DNA of 64,000 nt from a virus (taxonomy: Duplodnaviria; Caudoviricetes). Positions 1 to 26,552 of the stretch are shown piece after piece. The translations under genes were made by a program, and so were the position numbers. The DNA is taken from the IMG/VR virus record IMGVR_UViG_3300001528_000534, positions 64,001 through 128,000 of that record. One strand, written 5' to 3'. The notes beneath the pieces were generated by a model. The model did no database searches and was not told where the DNA came from. It was given only the letters and a program-made list of their open reading frames with translations. How positions within the stretch are numbered: the first letter of the stretch is position 1; the number at the start of each line of letters is the position of its first letter.

Positions 1-3000
1 GCTACTGCAGGATAGATTGCTGCAAATGTTTTAGAAACGGCATCTGAAAAAGAAAACGCCAAGGCTATGAATGAAAGTGCTTAGGCAGCAGATAATTTAA
101 AGAAAAAAGAAGTTGCTGAAACAGTAGCAACAGAAGGACAAGCTGTTGCAAATAATGTTAATAAGACAGGTAAAATAATAGCTCAAGGTATGTCTAGCAC
201 TCTATCTACTATTTCTTCAATGATAAAAACAGCCATGAGTGCAGTTCCTGCTCAAGTAAAAGTAATATTAGTTGTTATTGCAGCAGCAGTAGCTACAATA
301 ACAACAATATATTCAGAATTTGAAAAAAGGGCGGAAGCTGCGAAGAAGAGAGCAGAGGAAGCTGCTGAGACCGCAAAAGCGCTTGGAGAAGCTTATGAAG
401 AAACTACAGAAAAATTAAATAATTTAAATGATGCTTTAGATTCTTATAAAGATTTTTAGAATGACTTAAAAGAATTGACTAAAGGAACCCAAGAGTGGAA
501 TAAAGCACTTGAAGATTCTAATAAACAAGTTTTAGAATTAATAGAAAATTATCCTTCTATTGCTGGTTAGGTAAAGAGAGGACAAAGCGGAGAATTAATT
601 CTTGATGAAGAAGCTCAAAATAAAATAGTTAAAGAGTAGGAATAGGAAGTTGCTTCTTCTTATAGAGCAAAACTTGCCGCAGATATTCAAGAAATATAGA
701 CTTAGGAAATTGCTACTAAAGTAGAGTTATAGCAAGAGATTTTTGGAGAAGTAAAGCTTCTTCCCCTTGATTGGGACTTTTCTGCGGATGATTTAGATAA
801 AATCGTTACTGCAGTAGAAGCAAATGGAAGTCAAGTGTTAGATGCTTCTAATGCTGCTAGTAGAGAAATTTTATCTTTAGCTGGTTTTACAGATGAACAA
901 ATTAATGCTATTTAGAATAATTCAGATAAAATTTTATCCGCAGTTGATTCTATTGATAACAATAAAATAGCAGTAGATTTATTAACTCAAGAAATTAGTA
1001 AAATTGATTTTGGAGAGAACGAAGGATATAGCAATTTAACAGAAGAAGAAAAAATTTTAGTTGATAAATTAGCAAATGCGGATGATAAATATAAGGCAGT
1101 AAATGGCGAATCGAATATTGAAGTTCTTGGAAGAACAGAAGGATTAGAGGATTCTCCAGCAATTTTAGCTAAGTTTTTTAAAGAAGCTTTAGAAGAATAG
1201 GGATATGAAGTAAAAGGCAGCAGTATAAAAAAAGATGGAGAAAAATTATCTTCATCAGAAAGAGATGACTTATTAGAACAATTAGCAGGAGAATATGTAT
1301 CTAAAAAATCTTAGGAAGAAAGACAATTAAATGCTGATACTTATATTTAGGCAGCTTAGGCTTTTTCTAAGAGTAATCCTTTATTGGCTTCTTATTTTGC
1401 AACAGGAAATCTTTCTAATACGCCATTTTCTTAGAATTCATAGGCATTAGAAGATGCTAACGAATATCTAAGAGGAGTCCGAGCCCTTGCTGCTAACTAT
1501 CAAAGTAAAAGAAATTATTTACTTTATGATAAAGAAAATTATCTCCGTGAACAAACATACAATGATTATTATGTTAATGAATAGAACATAAATAAATTAG
1601 CAGAGATTTATTAGAAACTCGAAGCAAGTGATGCAAAAGATAAAGATTTAATGTTATAGTTTGCGGCTGTTGCCAAAGGCGTTGATGTTAGTGAACTAAC
1701 AGATGAAGATAAGGTTAGGGTAAATTGGTCTCTTATTTCCGATTCATTTTCAGCGTTAGGGGCAGACAATTATAACATAGGAGCAGAATAGAGATTAGCT
1801 GAATATTCTGCTTTATCAGGTGTTGAATTAGATTCAGATGCTATTGTTGCTTCTATCCAAGAATTTTAGAATGAAGTAGATAACGCTCTAAAAGGTGGAC
1901 AAGAATTAAAAACTGCAGGTACTTCTCAATATGTTGACGAGCAGTATCAAAAGGCTTTAGATGTTTTTGGAGAAGGAAATCTTACTCTTGAACAATAGAA
2001 TTAGCTATAGGATAAAATTCAAAGTATTTGGGATGAAAGCTCTAATGAAGGCGTAGAAGCTTTAATGGCTTCTTTAGATACAGAAGACTTTGAAGCGGCA
2101 ATTAATTTTACTTATAATGGTAATGAAAATGCGGCAGAAGGATTATCTGAAGACCTTCAATAGAAATTAAAAGATTTAAAGGTATCAGAAGATGATTTTA
2201 TTAACCAAAAAGATTTCTTTGAATTTTAGGGTAAAAGTTATTCTGATGATGCTATTGCTAATTACCTTGCCGCACAAAAAGAATTAAATAAGATTTAGAC
2301 TGAATATTAGAAGAATCTTAAAGCAATGGCAAAAGATTCTTCTGTACCAGAGTTCTTTGAGAATTTAAAGAAGGATACTTCTGAATTTACTAGCGAAGAA
2401 ACAGAGTCATTCTTAAATATTAAAAAAGCAATGAGTGAATTGTTTGGACGCGATGTAAGTACAGAATGGGTACAAAATCATTTAGATTTAATTAAAGAGT
2501 TTGCGGTTGAAGGTAAAAATGTCACTGCAGAGTTAAATGCTGCAAAATTAGAGATGGACGAAATAACATAGGAAGATATGGAAGCTTCTTTAGCTGCGTC
2601 CGCGAGAACTAATTAGGTTAAATTAGGCGCTCGAGCTAGTGAGTATTTCATGTCAGACGTTGAAGAAGTTGCGGCATCTCTTGAATTTAATCAAGAATAG
2701 ACTAAAGCTTTGTTCCAAAAGTATGGATACTATTGGGATGAAAGTCAAAATTCTTATATATATTTAGGAAAAATAGAAGATAAATATACTTATAATGCTT
2801 CTGATAATCCGGAAGATAAAAAGTATACTATTGAAGATTTATAGAAATTACTTGGAAAAGAAACTTTCTCAGTAGAAGAAGCAGAGTCTTTAGGGTTTGT
2901 TTACCATACGGGGAACCGTGGAGAAGCGCCTTATTATACAAGAGAAACTTTATTTAGTGATTCTTTGAAAGTAGAAGTTTCAGAGGAAAATACTGAAACA

Positions 3001-6000
3001 AGCACTTATGAAGAATTGCTTAAAAAATTTGGACTTAAAGCTGGAGTAGCTGCTAATAAGATGCTCCAAGCGGCAGGTTGGGTTTTTGATAAAGATGGTA
3101 ATGCTACTCGAACAATTGATGAAACTATTAAAAACGGTAGCGTAAGTTTAGAATATACTTTTGACAGTGTTGAAGAAGCAATAAAACAATTAGGAGAAGA
3201 CTTTGAAAAGGCTCTTGAATCAGGCGGAGCAACTATAACAGATGATGGAAATGGACATTTTATAGCAACAATAAATGCAACTATTAGTGGTGAAGCTAGT
3301 GTAGTTGGAGAACAAGGTGCCGCAGAAGTTGATGAAGATACTTCTACTACTAAAAAAGATACAACAGATAAATTCCAAGATTTAAACGATTAGATAAGTA
3401 AATATGACGCTTAGCTTTCTCATTTATAGAAATTAGAAAAAGGATTAGTTGGAACCGCTTTAGCAGAAAATATATAGGAGCAAAATAAAGTTAGAGAAAA
3501 ACAAATTTCTTTAATTAAAGAAAAGATATCTTTAACTAAAACTGAATTGTCTTAGTAGAGAGAATAGTTAAAAGCTCAAGGTCTTACTTTTGACGCAGAA
3601 GGATATTTGACTAACGCCGCATAGGTACTTCAATCTCTTGAAAATACTGATGCTTATGATACATTATCAACTTCAATTTCCAATTATCGTTCATTATTAG
3701 AAAGTTTACCTGACCTTGAAGATTCTCTTATTGTAGAGACTCCTGAAATTGACCCTCTGTTTGAAGTAAATAATTTAGTAGATGAATATAATACAAAATT
3801 AAAAAGATTACAAGAGACACAGGAGAATTTCTCTGGTGAAGCTTTAGTTAATAATTTACAAGAATAGGTTGAGTTATATCAAGATTTAATAGACGCTTAG
3901 AAAACTATGTATGCTATTAGGTCTACAACATTAGGCGATAGTAGAGAAGTCTTAAAAGGTTATGGTTTTACATTTGATGAAAGTGGAAAATTATCTGGCG
4001 GATTGTCTGATACGAAGTTAACTGCGGAAGGTGAAAAGTAGTAGATTACACTCCAAGAACGTTTAGAAGAAATTGCCAACTCAGATAACATAGCTTTAAA
4101 AGAATCTTATAGCTCTATTATTTCTATATTACAAGAGTATATTAAAGATTATCAGGATTCTCTTGAATTACTTTGGACTATTGAAGACAATGCTAAAAAA
4201 CAAGGCGAAGCTATGGCGCAAGGAGCTCTTGTAGAAGTTTCCAAGGCGGCAGAAGATGCTAAAAAGAGTCTCGAAAAAGCGAATAAAGAATATGAGAAAA
4301 CTGGTACTGCAACAGAGCAAGCTGAAGGATTTACTTTAAAACATGCTTAGGCAGTTAAAGATGAATCAGATGCTTTAGGAGATTTAATTGCAAAACAAGA
4401 AGAGTATATTGCGAAATTAAAAGAAGAAGAGGAACTCTTAGCGAAGAGAGAAAAGAATACTTTTAATACTGATTTATCTAAGGCTGGGATATCTAATGTT
4501 CAGCTAACATTGGAAGACAATGGTACTTCTAATGTTCAAGAAGTTCAAAGTGCGATTGCAGAAGAAATAAAGAAGAGAGAGGAAGCCTTTGAAAAAGCTT
4601 CTGATGCGGAAAAAGAAAAATTACAAGAAGAGATTGAAATTCTATCTGCTTTAGCAGGAAGAGTTGAGACAATTAGTGAAAAATGGGAAAATGTTTCAAG
4701 CGAAATAGAAACTGCTACTAATAATTTAAATTCTTATAAAGATAGTGCTAGTGCGGCAGACTTATTAAAAGATGATTTAAACGTATATTATGAAGTTGAT
4801 AATGAATTAGAAGAAATTTCTGATGAATTAAGTCAATTGAAGAGTCAATAGAGCAATCTTGAAGGAGACGCTTTAATCGCTAATTTAAATGAACAAAAAG
4901 CTTTAATTGATAAAGAAATTGTTGCTCAAAAAGAAAAAATTAAATTAGCATAGAAAGTATTAAAAGAACGCCAAGCAGAATTAGAAACAATTTTAAAAAT
5001 CTATTTATTAGAAAAAGATATCGTTGCAGTTTTTGATGAAAAGACTGGCAAAATTTCTAATTATAATGAAATCTTAACTGCGGCATCTACTCTTAGTGAA
5101 GCACAATATAATGAAATTAAGAGTGCTATGGATTTAGTAAATTCTAATGCTGATTCATTAAGAGAACTTAATAATTCTTTAAAGAGTTTAGACAATGAAA
5201 AAGATAGTATTGATAAGAGTATTAAAGAAGCAATTAAAAAACAAAAAGAAAAAGCTAAGAAAGAACTTGAAAAGAAAGTTAAGTGGTTTAATTTACAAGT
5301 AGATGTTGAATTAGATATCTCTGATGCTAACCGCCGCCTTAATGATTTGAAGAAAAAAATTGAAGGCTTGAATGATAATGATATTCTTGGCAATGTAAGA
5401 AAGAATTTTGAAAATTATCAAAGTTATTTTAAAGGTAATGCAGGCTCTTATTTTGGAGCAGGCGATACAGGAGCTATTACTGGTTTAACTTCTCATTTAA
5501 ATGCTATCATGTCTGAAATTAATACAATGCAAGCAGGTGGCACTTCTGGACTATATGGAACAGATTAGGAAAGCGCTTTTGAAGATTTATATAAATATAG
5601 AGATTCTTTAATGAGTTAGCTTGAAGCAGTACAATAGTTAAAAGAAGAAATCAAACAAGCTTATACAGAAATGTTAAATAAGTTTGCAGACAAAGTAAAT
5701 GATATCCTTGATGGTTATAAACAAATAAATGAAATTATTGACCATAACATTAATTTAATTAAATTAACGCAAGGTGAAAATGCATTTGCTGCTATTGGAA
5801 ACTGGTATGGTTAGAAAATAGAGAATGATAAGCAAACTCTCGCTTAGGCTAAAAAGGAAGCTGATTATTGGAAAAAAGCAATGGCTTCCGCCCAAAAAGG
5901 TTCAGAAGAATGGGAGAAATATTATGAAGAATATAGCAGTGCAATTTCTGACTTAAATTCTTTATTAGAATCTTCAATTTAGGATGCTCTTGATTAGTAT

Positions 6001-7821
6001 AATAATTTAATTTCTAAAGCTATGGCAGAATTAAATGCTAAATTAAGTGGCGGTTACAATCTTGATTATTTAGATGAAGATTGGGAACATGCAACAGATA
6101 TGGCAGACCGTTATTTAGATAAATTAAATAAAGCTTATGAAGTTACAACTCTAAGGAATAAGGTTGATAAATCTCTTAGTGACATGGATGATTTAGCTGC
6201 TTAGAAAAAACTACGAGACGTAATGGATGAATAGCTTAAAATATTAGAAAACAAAGAGTATCTAACACAATATGACGTAGATAGAGCGAATAAAATTTAT
6301 GAATTGACATTAAAACAAATTGCTTTAGAAGAAGCTCAGAATAATAAATCTAAAATGAGATTAAGGAGAGATTCTCAGGGCAATTACAGATATGAATATG
6401 TAGCTGATACAGAAGATATTGCTGATAAACAACAAGATTTACTTGATGCTCAAAATGATTTATATAATTTTGATAAAGAGAGATATATCTCTACTCTTGA
6501 CGAAGCTAATTAGGCTTATCGTAAATATACAGAAAGACGAATTGAAATTTTAAATAGCACCACTTATACAGAACAAGAAAAAACTTATTTATTAGACTAG
6601 TTAGATAAAGATTTTCGTGAAAGTCAATTAGGTAGATTAGAAGATTTATAGACAGCAGAACAGAATACAATGCAATCTGCCAATGATTTAAGTTAGCGGT
6701 TATTACAAGAGCAAGTAGATAATTTAGCAGAATTAATTCCTCAAGCTGGTTCTACTACTGCTGAATTTGTCCATAATATTTTGGATGGAGAAGGTGGAAT
6801 TAATAGTTCAATATCAGCAACTTTTGATATGCTGGATAACGAAGCTAAAAGATTGCAGGATACTATTGCAGATTTAGCTAATTCCGCAGGTGTTAATTTA
6901 GATACTCTTGCGAGTGGGTTTGACCCTGTTATAGATAATGTAAGAGATTTAATTAAAGAAAATGAAAATTTAGCGAGGTAGTACGAACAAGAATTGAATT
7001 CTATTGGAGCAGTTATTGCTTAGTTAGAAGCTTTAGAATAGCAATATAATGCTGTATATTAGGCAGCTTTAAAAACAATTGAAATAGCAAATCAATTAAG
7101 ACAATAGTAGACAAAAGATGATGATGATAGCACTACAACTAAAACAACTAATAAAGCAGCTAATAACAAAGCAAATACTTCCCAATCTTCAACAGATGCT
7201 ACTAAAGAAGATACGAATAAATCTAATAAATAGCATTAGAAACGAGTTGTGTATCATAATGGTAGTTTATACTTCTTATCCACAGATAAACCGGATGCGA
7301 AAGAAAAAGCTTATCTTAAAAAAATGGGTTAGGATTGGAAAATTCTTAATATGAATGGATATTAGACTTCTGGTTCTAAATTAATTAATACTACTACTAA
7401 AAAAGCTGTTGATGGATATCAAGCTAGTTGGTATACTTTTAAAGGATTTAATACAGGTGGATACACTGGAGATTGGAACTCTAACGAAGGAAAATTAGCA
7501 GTATTACACTAGAAAGAACTTGTTTTAAATCAAAAAGATACACAGAATATTCTTTCTGCTGTTGAAGCAGTAAGGAAATTATCAGACAGTTCTACTTCTA
7601 ATTTGGCATCATTCTTAACGAAGAGAGAAATGATTCAGGATTCTCAGTCTATAACCCAAATCTTAAAGCAAATAGCAGAAAATATAAAATCTAATGAATT
7701 ATAGTAGAATGTAAAAATTGAAGCGAACTTCCCAGATGTTAAAAATGCGGATGAAATTAAAAATGCTTTCAATAATTTAATAAATATAGCAAGTATGCAC
7801 GCAAATTCTACTAGAAGGTAA
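1..7821 (+). CDS. Tail tape measure protein (5'-truncated, >2600 aa, TAG read as Gln)
   Basis: All frame-1 ORF fragments (190, 2326, 2965, 4510, 5128, 6022, 6304, 6781) share a frame and are separated by TAG; the frame closes at TAA 7819-7821. Ala/Glu/Lys-rich coiled coil, hydrophobic stretch near 260-310, C-terminal FNTGGYTGDWNSNEGKLAVLHQKELVLN motif typical of tape measure proteins. Confidence 0.9.
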
Positions 7822-20299: not shown

Positions 20300-20541
20300 T
20301 TTTATCTTATTAGGGTTCTATTAATAAACATTTTAATAAAGGAGAAGAAGTTATTTCTTCTCCTTCTTTTTTTAAGCAAATAGGAATAGAAATATTAAAA
20401 GATTTTCCTATTAATGTTATTATTAATAATCAATCTTTTACTATTAATTCTAATAGAATTTTTGAGTTAGAAAATATACAAATTAATAGTTTAAAATTTA
20501 GTAATCCAGTGGATGCGGCAATCACCTATATCTTAGGCTAA
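20296..20541 (+). CDS. Small hypothetical protein (81 aa)
   Basis: ATGA overlap with the previous gene; MILSYQGSINKHFNKGEEV...AAITYILG TAA. Confidence 0.65.
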
Positions 20542-20544
20542 ACT

Positions 20545-20590
20545 GGGCAAGTTCAGATAATTTTCTCATTTTGAAATACATATTATATAG
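20545..20590 (+). promoter_or_regulatory. Putative phage late/middle promoter GG-N10-ATAA-N18-CATAT driving the six-gene operon
   Basis: GG 20545, ATAA 20557-20560, CATAT 20579-20583; identical spacing at 7870, 13052, 21662 (+) and 26278, 31121 (-). Confidence 0.6.
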
Positions 20591-20642
20591 TGAAAAATCA
20601 CAGATGAAATAAAATATTTCAAAATAGGAAGAAGGTTTATAA

Positions 20643-21125
20643 ATGAATTTCCCTAATTACAATGGTGCTACCAATTATTATAGTGGATATTAGCAATATC
20701 CATAGATACCTTATAATAATAATTTCCAAGGAAATAATTTTAATTAGCCTTTGTCTCAATAGAATACTGCTCCTCAACAATTTAATTTATAGGCTCCTAA
20801 TACGCTGAATGGAAAAATAGTTGAAAGTAAAGATATTGTTTCTGTTACAGAAATTCCTTTAGGTGGATATGGGTTATTCCCAAAAGCTGATTTAAGCGAA
20901 ATTTATGTAAAGGTTTGGAATAATTCTGGAACAACTGAAACACTTACTTTTAAGCCAGTAGCAAAAGAAAATGCTGTAAACCAAGAAAATACAATGAATG
21001 TTATTCTAGAAAAGATAAATGCTTTAGAAAATAAAATTAATTCATTATTACCTATTTCTTCATCGCAAGAACCAAAATAGGAAATATAGGAAATAAGAAG
21101 AGAGGTAAGTGCAAATGCCTACTAA
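20643..21125 (+). CDS. Operon gene 1: Q/N/Y/P-rich N-terminus plus conserved-looking globular domain (160 aa, code 15)
   Basis: MNFPNYNGATNYYSGYQQYPQ...LNGKIVESKDIVSVTEIPLGGYGLFPKADLSEIYVKVWNNSGTTETLTFKP; TAA 21123. Confidence 0.8.
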
Positions 21126-21357
21126 TCCAATGATGTTTTTAATGTCTATGCTAAAAAATGGAGCTAATCCTTAGCAATTAGCTCTTTCTATGTTACAATA
21201 GCAAGCAGGTAATAATCCCATGATGAATAATTTATTGCAATTAGCACAGAATGGAAAAGGTGTCGAAATTGAATAGATTGCTCGGAATATTATGAAAGAA
21301 AAAGGTTTAGATTTTGATAAAGAGTTTAATAGTTTTAAAAATAATTTAGGACTATAA
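21115..21357 (+). CDS. Operon gene 2: small Met/Gln/Asn-rich helical protein (80 aa)
   Basis: GAGG RBS; MPTNPMMFLMSMLKNGANPQQLALSMLQQQAGNNPMMNNLLQLAQNG...; overlaps gene 1. Confidence 0.8.
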
Positions 21358-21398
21358 AACTTTAGAATATAATGATATATTTAAGGAGGAATTAACGT

Positions 21399-22979
21399 AT
21401 GTTTAATTCAAACACAAGTGGCTACAGTTTAAGTGATATTGCAGCTGCAACAGGAAATGACAGGAATAATAACGACTGCTTTGGCGGAAATGGAGCTTGG
21501 TAAATTTTATCTGCCAAGGGTAAATCGCGGAATTAAGCGGGAAAGCTGAAATGCCAATCCGAACCGAAGGCTATAGTTACTATAGTCAGGGGCAACGCAT
21601 AGAGAGTGAAAAGATATAATCTCTCCACGAGGCCGCGACATTTTTAAGTCATAAAATCAATGGACATGGTAGGATAATTATCCCCCTTTTATTTTCAAGT
21701 ATATATGTGAAATAAATTTAAAGGAGAATTTTACTATATGGCACCAAAAATGTTAACACTTGAAGATTATGAAATTACAAGAGATGGACAAGTAATTAAT
21801 AAACATACCAATCATGTTCTAAAACCACAGCCAAATGCAAAAGGATACTTAAGAGTATCCATTGGCAAAAAATTAGTTTTTGTACATCGTTTAGTAGCTA
21901 AAAAATATATATCTAACCCAAATAACCTACCTCAAGTAAATCACAAAGATGGAAACAAATTAAATAACAATATGGAAAATTTAGAATGGGTAAGCAATTT
22001 AGAAAATAGGGCTCATGCAGTAAAAACTGGATTACATTTATCTGGTGAAAAAGCTACTAATCATAAATTAAATTGGGATTCAGTAGAATATATAAGAAAG
22101 CATCCTGAAATTCCAAGTTCTGAGTTAGCAGAAGAATTTGGAGTATCAAGAGCCACTATAAACGATGTAAAAAAATATCGTACTTGGAAAATTAAAAATG
22201 ACTTAAATAGTTGAAAAGATATGCTGAACTAATACGAAAGGTAAGTATTAGAATTATAGGATAAAAAACCTATAAGATAACAATATAATGGGATTATTAT
22301 TCTTTTCTTATTCTGTTTTGCAGGCGGATGGGGCAATGGTCGCGGAGGTCTTTTCGGAGGAGAAGGAGCTACCGCTTCAGGAATCACAGATGGCTATATT
22401 TTAACATCTGATTTTGCAAATCTTGAAAGAAAAATTGATGGTGTAAATAATGGTCTTTGTGATGGCTTCTATGCTATGAATACTGGTATGCTCAATGGCT
22501 TTAACACTTTAGGAAACAATATTCAAAGTGCTCAAGCTGCTGTGACTGCCGCAGTTAATGCTGATACTATTGCAAATATGTAGAATACAAATAGTCTTAC
22601 AGCTCAGTTAACAGGTTTAGGCACTCAACTTCAGCAATGTTGCTGCGATTAGAGATATGAGTCCGCTACTCAGTTTGCTAATTTAAATTACAATCTTGCT
22701 GACCAGTCTTGCCAAACACGCAGAACAATTACAGATGCTTCTAAAGACATAATTGCAAATCAAGATGCAAATACTCGTTCAATTCTTGATTTCTTAACTC
22801 AGGATAAGATTGCTTCTCTTACAGCAGAAAATCAGTCTCTTAAATTTGCTGCTTCTCAACAAGCACAAAATAACTATCTTGTTCATGCAATCAATCCTGC
22901 ACCCGTTCCTGCATATGTTGTAGCAAATCCTTATTGCAATTGCAACACTTATAACGGATGCGGATGCGCTAATATCTGA
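21399..22979 (+). CDS. Operon gene 3: Gly-flanked hydrophobic segment, long coiled coil and Cys-rich tail (263 aa spliced; exons 21399-21501 and 22291-22979)
   Basis: AAGGAGG RBS. Joining ...GCT TGG T | GG ATT ATT ATT... gives FGGNGAWWIIILFLFCFAGGWGNGRGG, then LQQCCCD...QDKIASLTAENQSLKFAASQQAQNNYL...NPYCNCNTYNGCGCANI TGA. Confidence 0.85.
21502..22290 (+). mobile_element. Group I intron (789 nt) in operon gene 3, HNH endonuclease in P8
   Basis: Exon ends in U, intron ends in G; P1 cttggU/Gccaag; P3 tcgcgg/ccgcga; P7 GCATA/TATGC; stem tttaagtcat/atgacttaaa encloses the ORF; removal restores the reading frame. Confidence 0.9.
21738..22214 (+). CDS. Intron-encoded HNH homing endonuclease
   Basis: VHRLVAKKYISNPNNLPQVNHKDGNKLNNNMENLEW HNH motif (I-HmuI-like) plus C-terminal HTH. 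Confidence 0.9.
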   Translation: MAPKMLTLEDYEITRDGQVINKHTNHVLKPQPNAKGYLRVSIGKKLVFVHRLVAKKYISNPNNLPQVNHKDGNKLNNNMENLEWVSNLENRAHAVKTGLHLSGEKATNHKLNWDSVEYIRKHPEIPSSELAEEFGVSRATINDVKKYRTWKIKNDLNS

Positions 22980-22998
22980 TTAATGGGAGGAATGAGAT

Positions 22999-23418
22999 AT
23001 GGAAATTACAGCTAACGCAGTGTAGACTGTTGCTGCTAATCAAAATGTTCTTTTTAATGAAACAGCAGTTTCAGGTTCTTGCTCAATCCTCCACAGAGAA
23101 GGTTCAGGTCTCGTAACTTTACGAGGCTTGACCAATCAGTGTAGAGCAAGATTTAAAGTAACATTTGGTGCTAATATTGCTGTTCCTACGGGTGGAACTG
23201 CAGGTGCTATTTCATTAGCTTTAGCTATAAGCGGAGAACCTGTGAATACAACTTCAATGATAGTAACACCTGCCGCAGTCGCAGAATATTTTAATGTAGC
23301 TAGCAGTATATATTTAGACGTACCTAAGAATTGTTGCTTAACAATAGCTGTTGAGAATACTTCAACTCAAGCTATTGATGTATAGAATGCTAATTTAATT
23401 GTAGAAAGGGTGGCTTGA
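22999..23418 (+). CDS. Operon gene 4: beta-sandwich protein, possibly BclA C-terminal/C1q-like (139 aa)
   Basis: GGGAGG RBS; MEITANAVQTVAANQNVLFNETAVSGSCSILHREGSGLVTLRG...FKVTFGANIAVP...QNANLIVERVA TGA. The fold is inferred from the strand pattern only. Confidence 0.7.
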
Positions 23419-23423
23419 TTTAA

Positions 23424-23912
23424 ATGGAAAATTTAAAAACTATGAAAAATTAGCTTATCTCTTTAGTACAAAATTAGCTAACTCACACAGAAACTGTGGA
23501 TACAAAAGAATTGGGCGAAGCAGTTGATATGATAAAAGATTTGGCAGAAACAATCTATTATTGTACAATAACTGAAGCTATGGAAGAAAAAGAGCATCAC
23601 AAAGAAGAAAATTCTTATTACAAATATTATGAAGAACGTCCTATGGGTATGAAAGATAATATGAGAATATCAAGAGATTGGGATTCATCAAGAGAAGGCT
23701 CAAATCCTAAAGACGGTCGTAGTCATATTACTCGTAGATATTATATGGAATCTAAAGAAAAACACTTAGATAATGCTACTACTATGAAAGAATTGGAGCA
23801 TTATCTCTCTGAATTGTCTTCTGATATAGCTGAAATGATAGAAGGCGCAACTCCAGAGGAAAAAATTCTTTTACAATAGAAATTAACAACATTAGTTAAT
23901 AAAATTAAATGA
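23424..23912 (+). CDS. Operon gene 5: charged helical protein (162 aa)
   Basis: MENLKTMKNQLISLVQNQL...DTKELGEAVDMIKDLAETIYYCTI...ATPEEKILLQQKLTTLVNKIK TGA. Confidence 0.8.
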
Positions 23913-24217
23913 CTATAACTATTAATAATATAGTTTGGAATATCTCCTTTGAGCCTGCGGATTCTCCTAAATTAAGAAAACATTTAGGAGAATTTTCCGT
24001 AGGAGTATGTGATTTACAAAATCATTGCATATATATAAATGAGAATGCGAGAGGAGATTTTTTGAAGAAAATCCTTCTTCATGAAATTACTCATGCTTTT
24101 ATATATTCATATGATTTATCTTTTGATTATCTTAAAGAAGAATATATTGCAGATTTTGTTGCTTCTTATGGAGAAGCAATATTAGATATTTATAAAAAAA
24201 TAAAGGGAACAGTATGA
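23909..24217 (+). CDS. Operon gene 6: small HEXXH zinc-metallopeptidase-like protein
   Basis: GVCD...CIYIN...ILLHEITHAF...EEYIAD zincin motif; ATGA overlap with gene 5. Confidence 0.75.
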   Translation: MTITINNIVWNISFEPADSPKLRKHLGEFSVGVCDLQNHCIYINENARGDFLKKILLHEITHAFIYSYDLSFDYLKEEYIADFVASYGEAILDIYKKIKGTV

Positions 24218-24253
24218 TTATTAATATATCAACTGTTCCCTTTATTTTTTTTT
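24194..24253. terminator. Bidirectional terminator between convergent arms
   Basis: aaaaaaataaagggaacagt...actgttccctttattttttt inverted repeat with A- and T-runs on either side. Confidence 0.85.
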
Positions 24254-24767
24254 ACCATTCTAAAAATGTTTCTTGAGTATTACTGCCAGAATTTTTTTGA
24301 ATGTAAGCATAACCTATTCCAATGGCATCAGCGGTATCATCATTAATATCTTCTTTTATATTGAATGTTGTTTTTACATAAGAGATATCTTCTTGTTTAA
24401 GCTATTCTCTTTTAATACCTCTACCTTGGGCAATACCGCAAACTTTTCGCCATTCACTTGGATATAAAAATTCTACCTTTAAATTATACTTTTCATGCAT
24501 TAATAAGACAATCATTGCTTGAAGCCACATTAAAGCTTTATAAGTTTTAATATTATTACCCAATTCTGGGCGGACTTCTTCTAAAATTACACATTCTATT
24601 GGTGACTAAATTTTCTCTATAATCTATATGATTTCTTTTTTCATCTTATCTAATCGGCATAATAAATCAGAAGAGCTGGCGGTAAAATATCCATATTGCA
24701 TTAATTTTTCTTTATCAAAAATAGCGTAGCCTGTACTTTTTGTACTAGCATCTAAAGCTAAAATCAT
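24252..24767 (-). CDS. RuvC-like Holliday junction resolvase (171 aa, code 15)
   Basis: MILALDASTKSTGYAIFD...VILEE...YPSEWRKVCG...NDDTADAIGIG; RNase H-fold acidic residues; missed by the ORF track because of TAGs. Confidence 0.85.
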
Positions 24768-24949: not shown

Positions 24950-26552
24950 TTAATGAGACCCCGTACTTCCAAAACCGCCATCTCCGCGAGCAGTATCTTC
25001 AAGTTCATCAACCTCTTGCCATGTATCTGTCACATAAGGAATGAAAATAAGTTGTGCAATACGCTCATTAGGTTCTATTATCTGACGGACATTTGAATCA
25101 TTGTGTAGAGGAACGATATATTCTCCCGTATAGTCTGTATCGCAAACCAATTTGTTATCGTAAAAGTTTTTTATCTTCTACCTCTTATGATTTCTCATAA
25201 GCTCAGCATATCTTTTCACTATATAAGTGCTGCGGCCTCGTGGGAGAATTATTCTTTCGTCATCTCCTATGCGTTGCCCCTGACTAAACCTATTTACATT
25301 TTAGCCTTCGGTTCGGATTAGCTTATTTTTCAACTTAGCCTTCCCGCTTAATTCCGCAGTTTAACGTCGGCGTTTTTATTTTTCTATAAATTCACTTGTT
25401 TCAAGCAATAAATCTTTAATATTTAATTCTTTATATCTAGTATAAGGTATTCGTATAAGAGGAATATTATTTTCTTTGCACCATTTAGATTTTATTAAAT
25501 CATGTTTATGAGTATATTCATAATCAAAAATACTATCTATGTTAAAATGCTATTCTCCATCATATTCAATTAAATATCTATTATCTATATAAAAATCAAA
25601 AGGCAAACTTCTTTTATCTTTACAAGAATTAAAAATTTTTTCTGTTTCATATTTAATATTATTTTGTTTTAATATTTGTGCAATTTTTTCATTACCTTTA
25701 GATATGTTAGAATGATTTCCGCAGCTTAAACTCTTTTCTTCTCTTAAAGATTGCCCTAAGACATCTTTTTCATTACCACATTCACATCGGCAACGCCAAT
25801 ATATGCTTCCATTTAAAGCTTTTTTATTAGATTTTCCTAAAACTACCCATTTTCCAAAAATCTGTCCTGTTAAATCTATCTCAGTGGTATTTTTATATTT
25901 TCGTTCTTTTCCTTTTAAGCCTGCATCATACCATGTTTTTGTAATCATTCCTCTTGATACGTTATATTCTTTTGCTAACTCACTTGAAGTTTTTGAATTA
26001 TAGTCTTTTATTATTTTTTCTTTATCTTTGGAAGATAATTTATAATTCCTATTTATTTGATTTATATTAAAATTAATTTTTTTAGCATGGTTTAAAACTG
26101 AGCCTTTATCACAATTATATAGCTCTCCCATTTTTCTTGAACTTTTAAATTTTAAATAATTAGCAATAAATTCATCATCGCTACCCCAGTTTATTCTTTT
26201 TCCCATATTCTATTCTCCTTTTTAATTTTTATCAATATTATATGAAAAAAGATTTCACCGGATTAATCAAAGAATACCAAAGATAAAATTTTTATTAGTT
26301 TTCACCGACACAATTCGCAGGTCTAAGTCCTTTCTTTGTAGCAAGTCCGCTACGAGCGAAAATAGCTCCAAAAGTATTAATATCTGCAATTTTAGGAGGA
26401 GTAATTGCAACACCTGTTCCAATTTTGACAGTTGTATGAGGCTGAATAGGAATAGGCTCATCAATACAAGCATATAAATCATAACCTGCCGCGTATTTAC
26501 TTCCCTGTGTAGGAATTGTTGCATTTGGCTTAATTTTCTTGAATTTAATCAT
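24950..26552 (-). CDS. dut: dUTPase (148 aa spliced; exons 26552-26304 and 25147-24950)
   Basis: AAGYDL, ARSGLA, spliced NCVG|VCDTDYTGE (motif III), ERIAQL, RGDGGFGSTG. Confidence 0.92.
25148..26303 (-). mobile_element. Group I intron (1156 nt) in dut, endonuclease ORF in the P1 loop
   Basis: GGU|...G|GTT boundaries restore motif III. The internal guide gccgacg (25365-25371) pairs with exon tgtcggU but lies after the ORF. Core closely resembles the intron at 21502. Confidence 0.88.
25376..26206 (-). CDS. Intron-encoded PD-(D/E)XK/Vsr-like homing endonuclease (276 aa, one TAG)
   Basis: N-terminal HTHs, DLTGQIFGKW...WRCRCECG...SCG module, SKGNEKI...LPFDFYI...LIEYDGE(TAG=Q)HF...HDLIKSKWCKENNIPLIRIPY; TAA 25376. 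Confidence 0.85.

What the first reader, a model, noticed from the sequence alone, without database searches (positions are those of the whole stretch)
20545..24253. Self-contained six-gene operon of unknown function: candidate undescribed membrane/surface system
Seen: own promoter motif and terminator, with overlapping or closely spaced genes encoding (1) a Q/N/Y-rich low-complexity protein, (2) a small M/Q/N helical protein, (3) a Gly-flanked hydrophobic segment (GGNGAWWIIILFLFCFAGGWGNG) followed by a long coiled coil with CCC and a Cys-rich tail, (4) a beta-sandwich possibly of BclA/C1q type, (5) a charged helical protein and (6) a HEXXH peptidase-like protein. None matches a canonical phage module. 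From memory, similar hypothetical-protein clusters recur in gut Firmicute phages, but I cannot verify that here. Inference: a membrane-inserting trimeric stalk plus head domain with chaperones and a maturation protease, acting for example on the spore or cell surface, in exclusion, or as an ejected virion component. Standard annotation would hide it through both TAG codons and an intron.
Basis: partly seen in the sequence, partly recalled or inferred. Interest (0 to 1): 0.8.

Follow-up and report, generated by a model that had tools for sequence, protein, structure and literature searches.

The report
Conserved gut-phage stalk-and-knob gene cassette
The six genes are real and form a very common but unstudied cassette of gut Firmicute phages, pairing a hydrophobically anchored, cysteine-rich coiled-coil protein with a small protein folded like the spore-surface proteins BclA/ExsF; its function is still unknown.

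Summary
Under TAG=Gln, and after removing a group I intron (21502-22290), window 20643-24217 encodes six tightly packed genes ending in a strong terminator.

- **Splice:** it is confirmed to the residue by an intron-less homologue and by an ORF-less copy of the same intron in another phage.
- **g4:** it folds with pLDDT 98 as a C1q/TNF jelly-roll. Its closest matches are F-BclA, BclA and BxpB/ExsF (Z 15.6-17.4).
- **g3:** it has a Gly-flanked, Trp-capped hydrophobic segment, about 190 residues of helix, an invariant CCC, a conserved Pro-rich tail and a Cys-rich end.
- **Conservation:** g2-g6 keep their order in more than 20 phages of 100-157 kb. The core g1-g5 recurs in 36-67 kb temperate-type phages and in Butyrivibrio phage Ceridwen, always at the far end of the late genes.
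- **Dispensability:** two independent natural deletions suggest the cassette is not essential.
- **Annotation:** g1-g5 match nothing in Pfam, NCBIfam or PADLOC, and I found no paper describing the cassette.

My best reading (confidence 0.35) is an accessory, late-made, membrane-anchored stalk-and-knob complex that acts on the host envelope at lysis or release. A spore-surface role is disfavoured. The promoter and the "maturation protease" idea are unsupported. This scan has already found the same cassette on other DNA, with the same verdict.

The parts
20542..20642 (+). 101-bp leader between the upstream tail-region gene (stop at 20541) and g1; promoter unverified
   Evidence: Sequence. Sigma-70-like matches are at chance level. 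No motif shared with other late leaders.
20643..21125 (+). g1, 160 aa: Q/N/Y-rich N-terminus, small beta region, C-terminal helix; 7 TAG codons
   Evidence: phrog_21718, E 4.5e-7. A g1-like gene precedes g2 in all large-phage loci. Profile-profile match to the small-phage versions: 96.9% probability, E 1.7e-10. Alignment A3.
21115..21357 (+). g2, 80 aa: M/Q/N/P-rich small helical protein; overlaps the end of g1; 3 TAG codons
   Evidence: Conserved in 12 large-phage loci, E down to 4e-30. Small phages carry a gene of like size and composition at the same place, but homology was not detectable.
21399..21501 (+). g3 exon 1, 34 codons plus 1 base: conserved N-terminus and the Gly/Asn-rich flank of the hydrophobic segment
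   Evidence: Sequence. Nearly identical to the N-terminus of the intron-less homologue P0123 (one substitution in exon 1).
21502..22290 (+). Group I intron, 789 nt
   Evidence: P1 pairs CUUGGU with GCCAAG, with U.G at the 5' splice site; the last base is G. An ORF-less 233-nt copy sits at the same site in L022 (85-87% identical) with a compensatory change in P1. The core shares three colinear exact blocks of 17-20 nt with window 25267-25357(-). No Rfam match.
21738..22214 (+). HNH homing endonuclease inside the intron, 158 aa, no TAG
   Evidence: Pfam HNH_3, 2.4e-8. phrog_59, 8e-46.
22291..22979 (+). g3 exon 2. The spliced protein is 263 aa: hydrophobic segment at about 33-48, Gly-rich flank, helices at about 74-235, invariant CCC (151-153), Pro-rich motif (about 239-248), Cys-rich end
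   Evidence: phrog_16490, 2.6e-25. At least 7,894 relatives. Alignment A2 with invariant CCC. AlphaFold2 monomer all helical but of low confidence. Both flanks are acidic.
22999..23418 (+). g4, 139 aa: stand-alone C1q/TNF-like jelly-roll of the BclA/ExsF type
   Evidence: phrog_20016, 4e-60. At least 7,975 relatives. 691 clusters at 50% identity. pLDDT 98.1. Foldseek and VIA-align top matches 9h38, 1wck, 8d02, 9h3d, Z 15.6-17.4. Only 2 longer forms found.
23424..23912 (+). g5, 162 aa: helical N- and C-terminal parts around a charged, Tyr-rich disordered middle
   Evidence: Conserved after g4 in about 20 loci. Profile match to the small-phage versions: 73% probability, E 3e-5. Alignment A4.
23909..24217 (+). 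g6, 102 aa: small HEXXH (HEITH) protein, weakly IrrE/M78/SprT-like; overlaps the g5 stop; no TAG
   Evidence: phrog_1233, 1.4e-14. Pfam hits are all below threshold. IrrE 3dte, E 0.022. Present in most but not all large-phage loci and absent from small-phage cassettes.
24196..24254 (.). Hairpin plus U-run terminator at the junction with the convergent minus-strand block (RuvC 24252-24767)
   Evidence: -25.2 kcal/mol, z = -8.0. Sequence. RuvC-like neighbour.

Best explanation
This is a portable, dispensable late-gene cassette with core genes g1-g5. I read it as building a membrane-anchored stalk-and-knob complex in the infected cell.

**Proposed parts**
- g3 is the stalk. It has a short, Trp-capped hydrophobic segment between Gly-rich hinges, then about 190 residues of oligomeric helix carrying an invariant CCC, then a conserved Pro-rich tail and a Cys-rich end.
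- g4 is the knob. It is a stand-alone C1q/TNF-type jelly-roll of the BclA/ExsF kind. By inference it is a trimer that docks on g3's Pro-rich tail, much as ExsF grips the Pro-rich exosporium leader peptide.
- g1, g2 and g5 are low-complexity partners made in step with them.
- g6 (HEXXH) is an add-on of the large-phage lineage.

**Proposed action.** The complex is made late and acts on the host envelope at the lysis or release stage, for example by timing or assisting envelope breakdown or by handling cell-surface ligands. It is not an essential virion or lysis part.

**Shown:** gene structure, splice, g4 fold, co-conservation, late position. **Suggested by two deletion variants:** dispensability.
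**Inferred:** oligomeric state, g3-g4 contact, membrane insertion and topology, the stage and target of action.
For: - **Co-conservation.** g2-g3-g4-g5(-g6) keep one order in more than 20 IMG/VR phages of 100-157 kb, with a g1-like gene in front of g2.
- **Wider reach.** The core recurs in 36-67 kb phages and in Ceridwen and Dulem virus 33. g1 and g5 homology there is backed by profile comparison.
- **Co-expression.** Tight spacing and overlaps fit co-translation.
- **Late timing.** TAG codons in g1-g5 of a TAG-recoded phage place expression late.
- **Position.** The cassette always lies at the far end of the late block. In the window it follows the tail genes. In all 7 small phages a peptidoglycan hydrolase lies within about 0.5-2.6 kb, before or after the cassette.
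- **g3.** The hydrophobic segment and long helices appear in every homologue.
- **g4.** pLDDT 98; Z 17.4 to F-BclA, 16.0 to BclA, 15.8/15.6 to BxpB/ExsF. It is always stand-alone.
- **Docking analogy.** ExsF binds a Pro-rich peptide in its trimer clefts (PMC12357932). g3 has a near-invariant P-x-P-A-Y-x-V-P-N-P tail.
- **Dispensability.** L025 equals L027 minus 1.55 kb (the end of g1, plus g2 and g3). L021 has g1 truncated, g2 fused to g4 without g3, and g5 split.
- **Phage-borne.** The family is rare in bacterial genomes, 2 of 401 species.
Against: - No experiment or expression data exist for any member.
- g4, g1, g2 and g5 have no signal peptide. If g3's stalk faces outward, its partners cannot reach it before lysis.
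- Both flanks of g3's hydrophobic segment are acidic and nearly free of Lys/Arg, and the hydrophobic core is only about 13-16 residues. Stable membrane insertion and topology are therefore uncertain.
- In the large phages, including this one, no lysin lies within 7 kb of the cassette. The window phage's GH25+M15_3 lysin is 43 kb away. So the link may be to the end of the late operon rather than to lysis.
- The g3 monomer model is poor, pLDDT 57.
- Deletion variants taken from metagenomes may be defective genomes.
Confidence: 0.35

Rival explanations
1. Virion-associated accessory structure. g3 and g4 would form a fibre, whisker or decoration (coiled-coil shaft with a C1q/TNF-like knob), or a membrane-penetrating ejection part whose hydrophobic segment enters the host membrane at infection. 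g1, g2 and g5 would be assembly helpers.
For: - None of the products has a signal peptide, as expected for parts assembled in the cytoplasm.
- C1q/TNF-like knobs are common on phage fibres. Fold matches include the cyanophage A4 tail complex, the cyanophage A-1(L) short tail fibre, the phi812 central spike and many fibre proteins in BFVD.
- In the window and in L027 the cassette directly follows the tail-fibre genes.
- The hydrophobic segment has no basic anchors and has Gly hinges, more like an inserting peptide than a stop-transfer anchor.
- Homing endonucleases have invaded g3 at two or more sites, which points to a strongly constrained gene.
Against: - The same cassette occurs in phages with unrelated structural modules and sizes (36-157 kb). 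In several it lies after the lysin, outside the morphogenesis block.
- g4 is never fused to a fibre shaft among thousands of relatives.
- Two natural deletions of g3 argue against an essential part.
- A very hydrophobic, Trp-capped segment is unusual for a soluble fibre protein.
Confidence: 0.25
2. Exclusion or receptor-masking module. A membrane-anchored stalk with a lectin-like knob would block superinfecting phages, or cover receptors on the dying cell and its debris so that progeny are not lost.
For: - It is an accessory, dispensable, portable cassette at a moron-like position: next to the integrase in Dulem virus 33, L026 and L027, sometimes with its own small sigma-70 region-4 protein.
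- C1q/TNF-like folds include glycan-binding lectins (titles seen).
Against: - In this lytic, TAG-recoded phage the genes need the late suppressor to be read through, which is the wrong timing for classical exclusion.
- g4 has no export signal.
- No PADLOC match.
Confidence: 0.15
3. Spore-surface or exosporium module. The phage would supply BclA/ExsF-like and Cys-rich coat-like proteins that are built onto host spores.
For: - The closest structures are all exosporium proteins of the Bacillus cereus group.
- The partners are Cys-rich and Q/N/Y-rich, and there are no signal peptides, as for mother-cell assembly.
Against: - The cassette is present in a lytic phage of Butyrivibrio fibrisolvens, regarded as non-sporulating (my own knowledge), and in bins labelled uncultured Bacilli and Mollicutes.
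- There is no collagen stalk and no exosporium-leader match.
- It is rare in bacterial genomes.
Confidence: 0.04
4. Not one system: unrelated small late genes that merely sit together.
For: g6, the Cys/His peptidase-like gene and the small sigma-like gene come and go between lineages.
Against: g1-g5 keep order and tight spacing across phages that share little else.
Confidence: 0.03

Closest known systems
BclA C-terminal domain, F-BclA C-terminal domain and ExsF/BxpB (ExsFA) of the Bacillus cereus-group exosporium (PDB 1WCK, 9H38, 8D02, 9H3D, 7R1M)
   Same: - g4 has the same C1q/TNF jelly-roll over its whole length: Z 15.6-17.4, rmsd 1.9-2.0 A over 120-129 residues.
- Like ExsF/BxpB it is a stand-alone protein of about 140 aa.
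- ExsF grips a Pro-rich peptide, and g3 ends in a conserved Pro-rich motif.
   Different: - Sequence identity is only 11-19%, and there is no Pfam or NCBIfam match.
- There is no collagen stalk and no exosporium leader.
- The partner is a hydrophobically anchored coiled coil.
- It is phage-borne, including in phages of non-sporulating hosts.
Accessory proteins of the Bacillus subtilis PBSX/SPbeta lytic cassette: XepA/YomS and XhlA (PMC6834076)
   Same: - These are small, poorly understood proteins encoded between the tail-fibre and holin-lysin genes of Firmicute phages.
- One is a beta-rich oligomer (abstract seen). The other, XhlA, I recall as a membrane protein with a coiled coil (my own recollection).
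   Different: - There is no sequence or fold relation. XepA is a pentameric dumbbell, not C1q/TNF-like.
- g3 is three times the size of XhlA (about 89 aa, from memory) and is Cys-rich.
- In the large phages the cassette is not next to the lysin.
Phage lambda Rz/Rz1 spanin and the phage T4 holin T with its RI/RIII regulators
   Same: The architecture matches only in outline: a short N-terminal part, one hydrophobic segment, then a large helical domain with conserved cysteines and a Pro-rich end, made late and, in small phages, next to the lysis genes. The Rz/Rz1 and T4 features are from my own knowledge.
   Different: - There is no lipoprotein partner.
- The hosts appear to be single-membrane Firmicutes.
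- The flanks are acidic.
- There is no sequence similarity.
- Canonical holins are present alongside in L027 and L026.
PHROG families phrog_16490 (g3), phrog_20016 (g4), phrog_21718 (g1), phrog_1233 (g6), all marked 'unknown function'
   Same: The window proteins are members by sequence.
   Different: These are bare clusters with no assigned function and no described link between them.

Membership tests
C1q/TNF-like superfamily, BclA/ExsF group (g4) | Compact ten-strand jelly-roll matching solved members over the whole domain | tested here: met
   pLDDT 98.1. Foldseek probability 1.00. Z 17.4, 16.0, 15.8 and 15.6 to 9h38, 1wck, 8d02 and 9h3d, rmsd about 1.9 A.
C1q/TNF-like superfamily, BclA/ExsF group (g4) | Sequence membership in the curated BclA_C model or another curated family | tested here: not met
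   No relevant Pfam hit at E up to 1. No NCBIfam hit. No PDB sequence hit with profile A1.
C1q/TNF-like superfamily, BclA/ExsF group (g4) | Homotrimer | not tested
   Only single-chain prediction was available.
BclA-type collagen-like exosporium glycoprotein | N-terminal exosporium leader plus GXY collagen repeats fused to the C-terminal domain | tested here: not met
   g4 is 139 aa with no GXY region. The listed relatives are about 60-200 aa. Only 2 longer forms were found against at least 7,975 of similar length.
ExsF/BxpB-type anchor | Binds a Pro-rich leader peptide in the clefts of the trimer | not testable with these tools
   This is an analogy only: the g3 tail motif set against the ExsF/F-Anchor complex. 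A multimer prediction or a binding assay is needed.
Group I intron (21502-22290) | Removal restores the reading frame exactly as in intron-less homologues | tested here: met
   P0123 reads ...GGNGAWWIIILFLF... across the junction. The spliced product is 263 aa.
Group I intron (21502-22290) | P1 helix with a U.G pair at the 5' splice site, and G as the last intron base | tested here: met
   CUUGGU pairs with GCCAAG; the intron ends in G22290. There is a compensatory change in L022 (CAUGGU/GCCAUG).
Group I intron (21502-22290) | Match to a curated group I covariance model | tested here: not met
   No Rfam match at E up to 1 over 5 kb, nor at E up to 10 on the 5' core alone. The endonuclease ORF splits the core, so this failure is weak evidence.
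Group I intron (21502-22290) | Homing endonuclease in a loop, with ORF-less copies elsewhere | tested here: met
   HNH_3. The ORF-less 233-nt copy in L022 is 85-87% identical.
Holin (g3) | Small membrane protein with a charged C-terminus, next to the endolysin, that triggers lysis | tested here: inconclusive
   There is one hydrophobic segment, but the protein is 263 aa with acidic flanks. No holin family matched. The lysin is 43 kb away in this phage. Canonical holins co-occur in L027. Function was not tested.
Two-component spanin (g3 as i-spanin) | Paired outer-membrane lipoprotein partner, in a host with two membranes | tested here: not met
   No product of the cassette has a lipobox or signal peptide. 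The lysin types and Butyrivibrio point to single-membrane Firmicute hosts.
ImmA/IrrE (M78) or SprT-like zinc metallopeptidase (g6) | HEXXH motif within a family-level sequence match | tested here: inconclusive
   HEITH is present. Pfam SprT-like scores 19.0 bits against a cut-off of 25.6, and M78 scores 13.9 against 22. IrrE 3dte, E 0.022.
Known anti-phage defence systems | Match to a PADLOC model | tested here: not met
   No hit for g1-g6.

The most novel reading that the evidence does not exclude
The cassette would encode a new kind of phage membrane-active machine for single-membrane bacteria.
- g3 would be a coiled-coil stalk whose Gly-hinged, anchor-free hydrophobic peptide inserts into a membrane on cue. 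This is the layout of class I viral fusion proteins; the g3 profile even shows a weak, non-significant local likeness to influenza HA2.
- The stalk would be clamped or triggered by an ExsF-like trimer (g4) seated on its Pro-rich tail.
- A small peptidase (g6, or the Cys/His protein of the small phages) might activate it.
- The phage would use it to perforate, fuse or remodel the host membrane at the end of infection.
Probability: 0.1. Interest if true: 0.85.

Novelty: categorically new. Interest (0 to 1): 0.6.

Why it matters
The g3 and g4 families each have at least about 7,900 relatives in public metagenomes. They occur in phages as different as 36-kb temperate siphoviruses and 157-kb recoded phages. 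Yet g1-g5 match no curated family or defence model, and I found no paper on the cassette. A conserved multi-gene unit this common in gut and rumen Firmicute phages probably marks a step of the phage life cycle in single-membrane bacteria that is not yet described.

It also extends the BclA/ExsF branch of the C1q/TNF fold from spores to phages. A cultured model exists for testing: Butyrivibrio phage Ceridwen on strain DSM 3071.

This copy adds two things. It shows that TAG recoding and an intron make standard annotation miss the genes altogether. It also shows that homing endonucleases have invaded g3 at two or more sites, which points to strong constraint on that gene.

Tried and rejected
- **Curated family libraries.** Pfam, NCBIfam and PADLOC gave nothing for g1-g5. 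PHROGs gave only families of unknown function.
- **PDB by sequence.** Profiles of g4, g1 and g5, and single g5 and g6, gave nothing significant.
- **HA2 likeness.** The g3 profile hits influenza HA2 at E 0.002, but each stretch alone has E 0.9-10. I treat this as a compositional lead, not homology.
- **Rfam.** It did not recognise the intron.
- **g3 model.** The AlphaFold2 monomer was too poor for a fold search (pLDDT 57).
- **Holin guess.** I guessed that the 135-aa membrane-helical protein upstream of g1 in other large phages is an LL-H-type holin. Pfam did not support this, and it has no homologue in this phage.
- **Holin hunt in this genome.** A hydrophobicity scan was swamped by spurious AT-rich ORFs.
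- **Promoter.** Chance-level sigma-70 matches and no shared late motif.
- **Bacterial genomes.** The scan with alignment A1 failed for lack of a conserved stretch. The single-protein scan found only six metagenome bins.
- **Literature.** The searches found no description of the cassette.

Full report
**1. What is there**

Read with the bacterial code, the region is a litter of short fragments. Read with TAG as glutamine, it becomes a row of clean plus-strand genes.

The window is bases 64001-128000 of a 139,691-bp phage contig. The contig carries 19 tRNA genes, including a suppressor tRNA with anticodon CUA. Its long late block is dense in in-frame TAG codons. The cassette is the last part of that block. 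Upstream lie large tail-region genes. Downstream, convergent, lies a RuvC-like resolvase.

The genes are:
- g1, 20643-21125
- g2, 21115-21357
- g3, in two exons (21399-21501 and 22291-22979)
- g4, 22999-23418
- g5, 23424-23912
- g6, 23909-24217

They overlap or lie 5-41 bases apart. The block ends in a hairpin of -25.2 kcal/mol (z = -8) followed by nine U.

The claimed own promoter could not be verified. Sigma-70-like matches are at chance level, and the leader shares no motif with other late leaders.

**2. The intron**

- The intron-less homologue P0123 (263 aa, 94% identical) reads straight across the junction with the predicted residues.
- The 5' exon end CUUGGU pairs with GCCAAG eleven bases into the intron, giving the U.G pair typical of group I introns. 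The intron ends in G.
- A 158-aa HNH endonuclease sits inside.
- Locus L022 carries an ORF-less 233-nt copy of the same intron at the same codon. It is 85-87% identical on both sides of the place where the endonuclease gene lies, and it has a compensatory change in P1 (CAUGGU/GCCAUG).
- The core shares three colinear exact blocks of 17-20 nt with window 25267-25357 on the minus strand.

Rfam did not recognise the intron.

In other phages g3 is interrupted right after its invariant CCC by about 1.1-kb inserts that encode GIY-YIG-type endonucleases. So selfish elements have entered g3 at two or more sites.

**3. The proteins**

*g4.* With an alignment of 67 relatives it folds at pLDDT 98.1. Foldseek and VIA-align both put the Bacillus exosporium proteins on top: F-BclA C-terminal domain Z 17.4, BclA 16.0, BxpB 15.8, ExsF 15.6, at rmsd about 1.9 A over 120-129 residues. 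Animal C1q and TNF domains follow at Z 13-15.

There is no sequence-level membership in any curated family. The family is large: at least 7,975 relatives and 691 clusters at 50% identity. It is essentially always a stand-alone protein of about 140 residues, with only two longer forms found.

*g3.* It also has at least 7,894 relatives. Across 32 diverse members the plan is constant:
- a short conserved N-terminus;
- a Gly/Asn-rich stretch;
- a very hydrophobic, Trp-capped segment of about 13-16 residues;
- another Gly-rich stretch;
- long helices, with the only fully invariant run being CCC;
- a near-invariant Pro-rich motif (P-x-P-A-Y-x-V-P-N-P);
- a Cys-rich end.

The single-chain model is all helical but of low confidence, as expected for an oligomeric coiled coil.

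Both flanks of the hydrophobic segment are acidic and almost free of Lys/Arg. The positive-inside rule therefore gives no topology, and the segment looks as much like an inserting peptide as like a classical anchor.

*g1, g2, g5.* These are low-complexity proteins with short folded parts. None of g1, g2, g4 or g5 has a signal peptide.

*g6.* It has HEITH and weak, sub-threshold likeness to IrrE/M78 and SprT-like peptidases.

**4. Conservation**

In more than 20 viral contigs of 100-157 kb the order g2-g3-g4-g5, usually followed by g6, is kept. A g1-like gene precedes g2.

In contigs of 36-67 kb, in Dulem virus 33 and in Butyrivibrio phage Ceridwen the core recurs. There it has a Cys/His peptidase-like gene at its head instead of g6, and sometimes a small sigma-70 region-4 protein.

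Profile comparison supports homology of the large-phage and small-phage versions of g1 (96.9%, E 1.7e-10) and of g5 (73%, E 3e-5). It does not support homology for g2, which is too low in complexity.

The cassette always lies at the far end of the late genes.
- In all seven small phages a peptidoglycan hydrolase lies within about 0.5-2.6 kb, either before or after the cassette.
- In the large phages no such enzyme lies within 7 kb. This phage's GH25 plus M15_3 lysin is 43 kb away.

The family is rare in bacterial genomes, 2 of 401 sampled species of one Firmicute phylum. The few genome hits are metagenome bins, one of them a 139.6-kb contig the size of this phage.

**5. Dispensability**

L025 is L027 minus 1.55 kb, which removes the end of g1 and all of g2 and g3. 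L021 has g1 truncated, g2 fused in frame to g4 with g3 gone, and g5 split.

Two independent decayed copies in otherwise intact-looking contigs argue that the cassette is accessory. The caveat is that metagenomic contigs may be defective genomes.

**6. Reading**

The data fit a co-expressed multi-protein unit built around a stalk (g3) and a knob (g4).

The ExsF/F-Anchor crystal structure shows a Pro-rich peptide lying in the clefts of an ExsF trimer (PMC12357932). By analogy I propose that g4 sits on g3's Pro-rich tail.

Three facts favour an accessory function at the host envelope late in infection (confidence 0.35):
- the cassette moves between phages with unrelated virion modules;
- it can be lost;
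- it sits at the end of the late operon, next to the lysis genes where these are at that end.

Rival readings:
- A virion-associated fibre or ejection part remains a serious rival (0.25). Nothing in the cassette has an export signal, C1q/TNF knobs are common on phage fibres, and the hydrophobic segment lacks basic anchors.
- Exclusion or receptor masking is possible (0.15).
- A spore-surface role is disfavoured, mainly because Ceridwen is a lytic phage of a non-sporulating host.

**7. Novelty**

Nothing in Pfam, NCBIfam, PADLOC or the solved-structure sequences accounts for g1-g5. PHROGs lists them only as unknown. Literature searches found no description.

Earlier follow-ups of this same scan, on other genomes, reached the same verdict: a conserved cassette, a BclA/ExsF-like knob plus a membrane-anchored Cys-rich stalk, function unknown, not spore-specific. 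My tests agree with them independently.

- the recoded and intron-split copy;
- the P1 covariation;
- the acidic-flank observation;
- the ExsF-leader analogy for the g3 tail;
- the count showing that lysin adjacency holds only in the small phages.

Noticed in passing
window 25267-25357 (-): Three colinear exact blocks of 17-20 nt are shared with the core of the g3 intron.
   Followed up: partly
L003:5442-6600 and L015:5553-6639: In other phages g3 is split right after its invariant CCC by inserts of about 1.1 kb, each encoding a 266-aa GIY-YIG-type endonuclease. This is a second, independent invasion site in the same gene.
   Followed up: partly
L022:5995-6227: An ORF-less 233-nt version of the window's intron sits at the same codon of g3, with a compensatory change in P1. 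It could seed a covariance model for this intron class, which Rfam misses.
   Followed up: partly
L025 versus L027; L021:6517-7934: Natural decay of the cassette. One case is a clean 1.55-kb deletion of g1(C-terminal part)-g2-g3. The other is an in-frame g2-g4 fusion lacking g3, with g1 truncated and g5 split.
   Followed up: yes
window 1-7821 (genome 61487-71821): A single open frame of 3,444 codons with 95 in-frame TAG codons, followed by one of 1,635 codons with 33. Neither was identified: the 1,635-codon product had no PHROG or Pfam hit, and the 3,444-codon frame was not scanned.
   Followed up: no
genome 131015-132202 (window 67015-68202, beyond the window's end): The phage's endolysin (GH25 muramidase plus Peptidase_M15_3) lies in a separate short plus-strand late block, after a BspA-type leucine-rich-repeat protein, 43 kb from the cassette. 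No holin was identified.
   Followed up: partly
genome 1695-1767 (outside the window): A suppressor tRNA with anticodon CUA sits among a cluster of 10 tRNA genes. ARAGORN labels it Pyl; it is presumably the Gln suppressor that reads the late genes.
   Followed up: no
P0123 residues about 41-121 (window g3, exon 2): Local likeness to influenza HA2: FAGGWGNG...GLFGG, and DFANLERKIDGVNNGLCDGF against EFNNLERRIENLNKKVDDGF. The whole-sequence E-value is 0.002 but each stretch alone is not significant. It is probably convergent coiled-coil and Gly-rich composition.
   Followed up: partly
L009:4835-5251, L005:4876-5313, L008:4826-5215, L018:2578-3138: In other large phages a conserved protein of about 135 aa, with an N-terminal membrane segment and a helical body, lies just upstream of g1. 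It has no Pfam match and no homologue in this phage.
   Followed up: partly
L026:4534-4743; L002:4872-5120; L001:5548-5769: Small proteins (70-82 aa) sit between the lysin and the cassette in small phages. The L026 one is sigma-70 region-4-like by a sub-threshold Pfam hit; the L002 one had no Pfam hit, and the L001 one looks similar by eye only. They may be a dedicated regulator of the cassette.
   Followed up: partly
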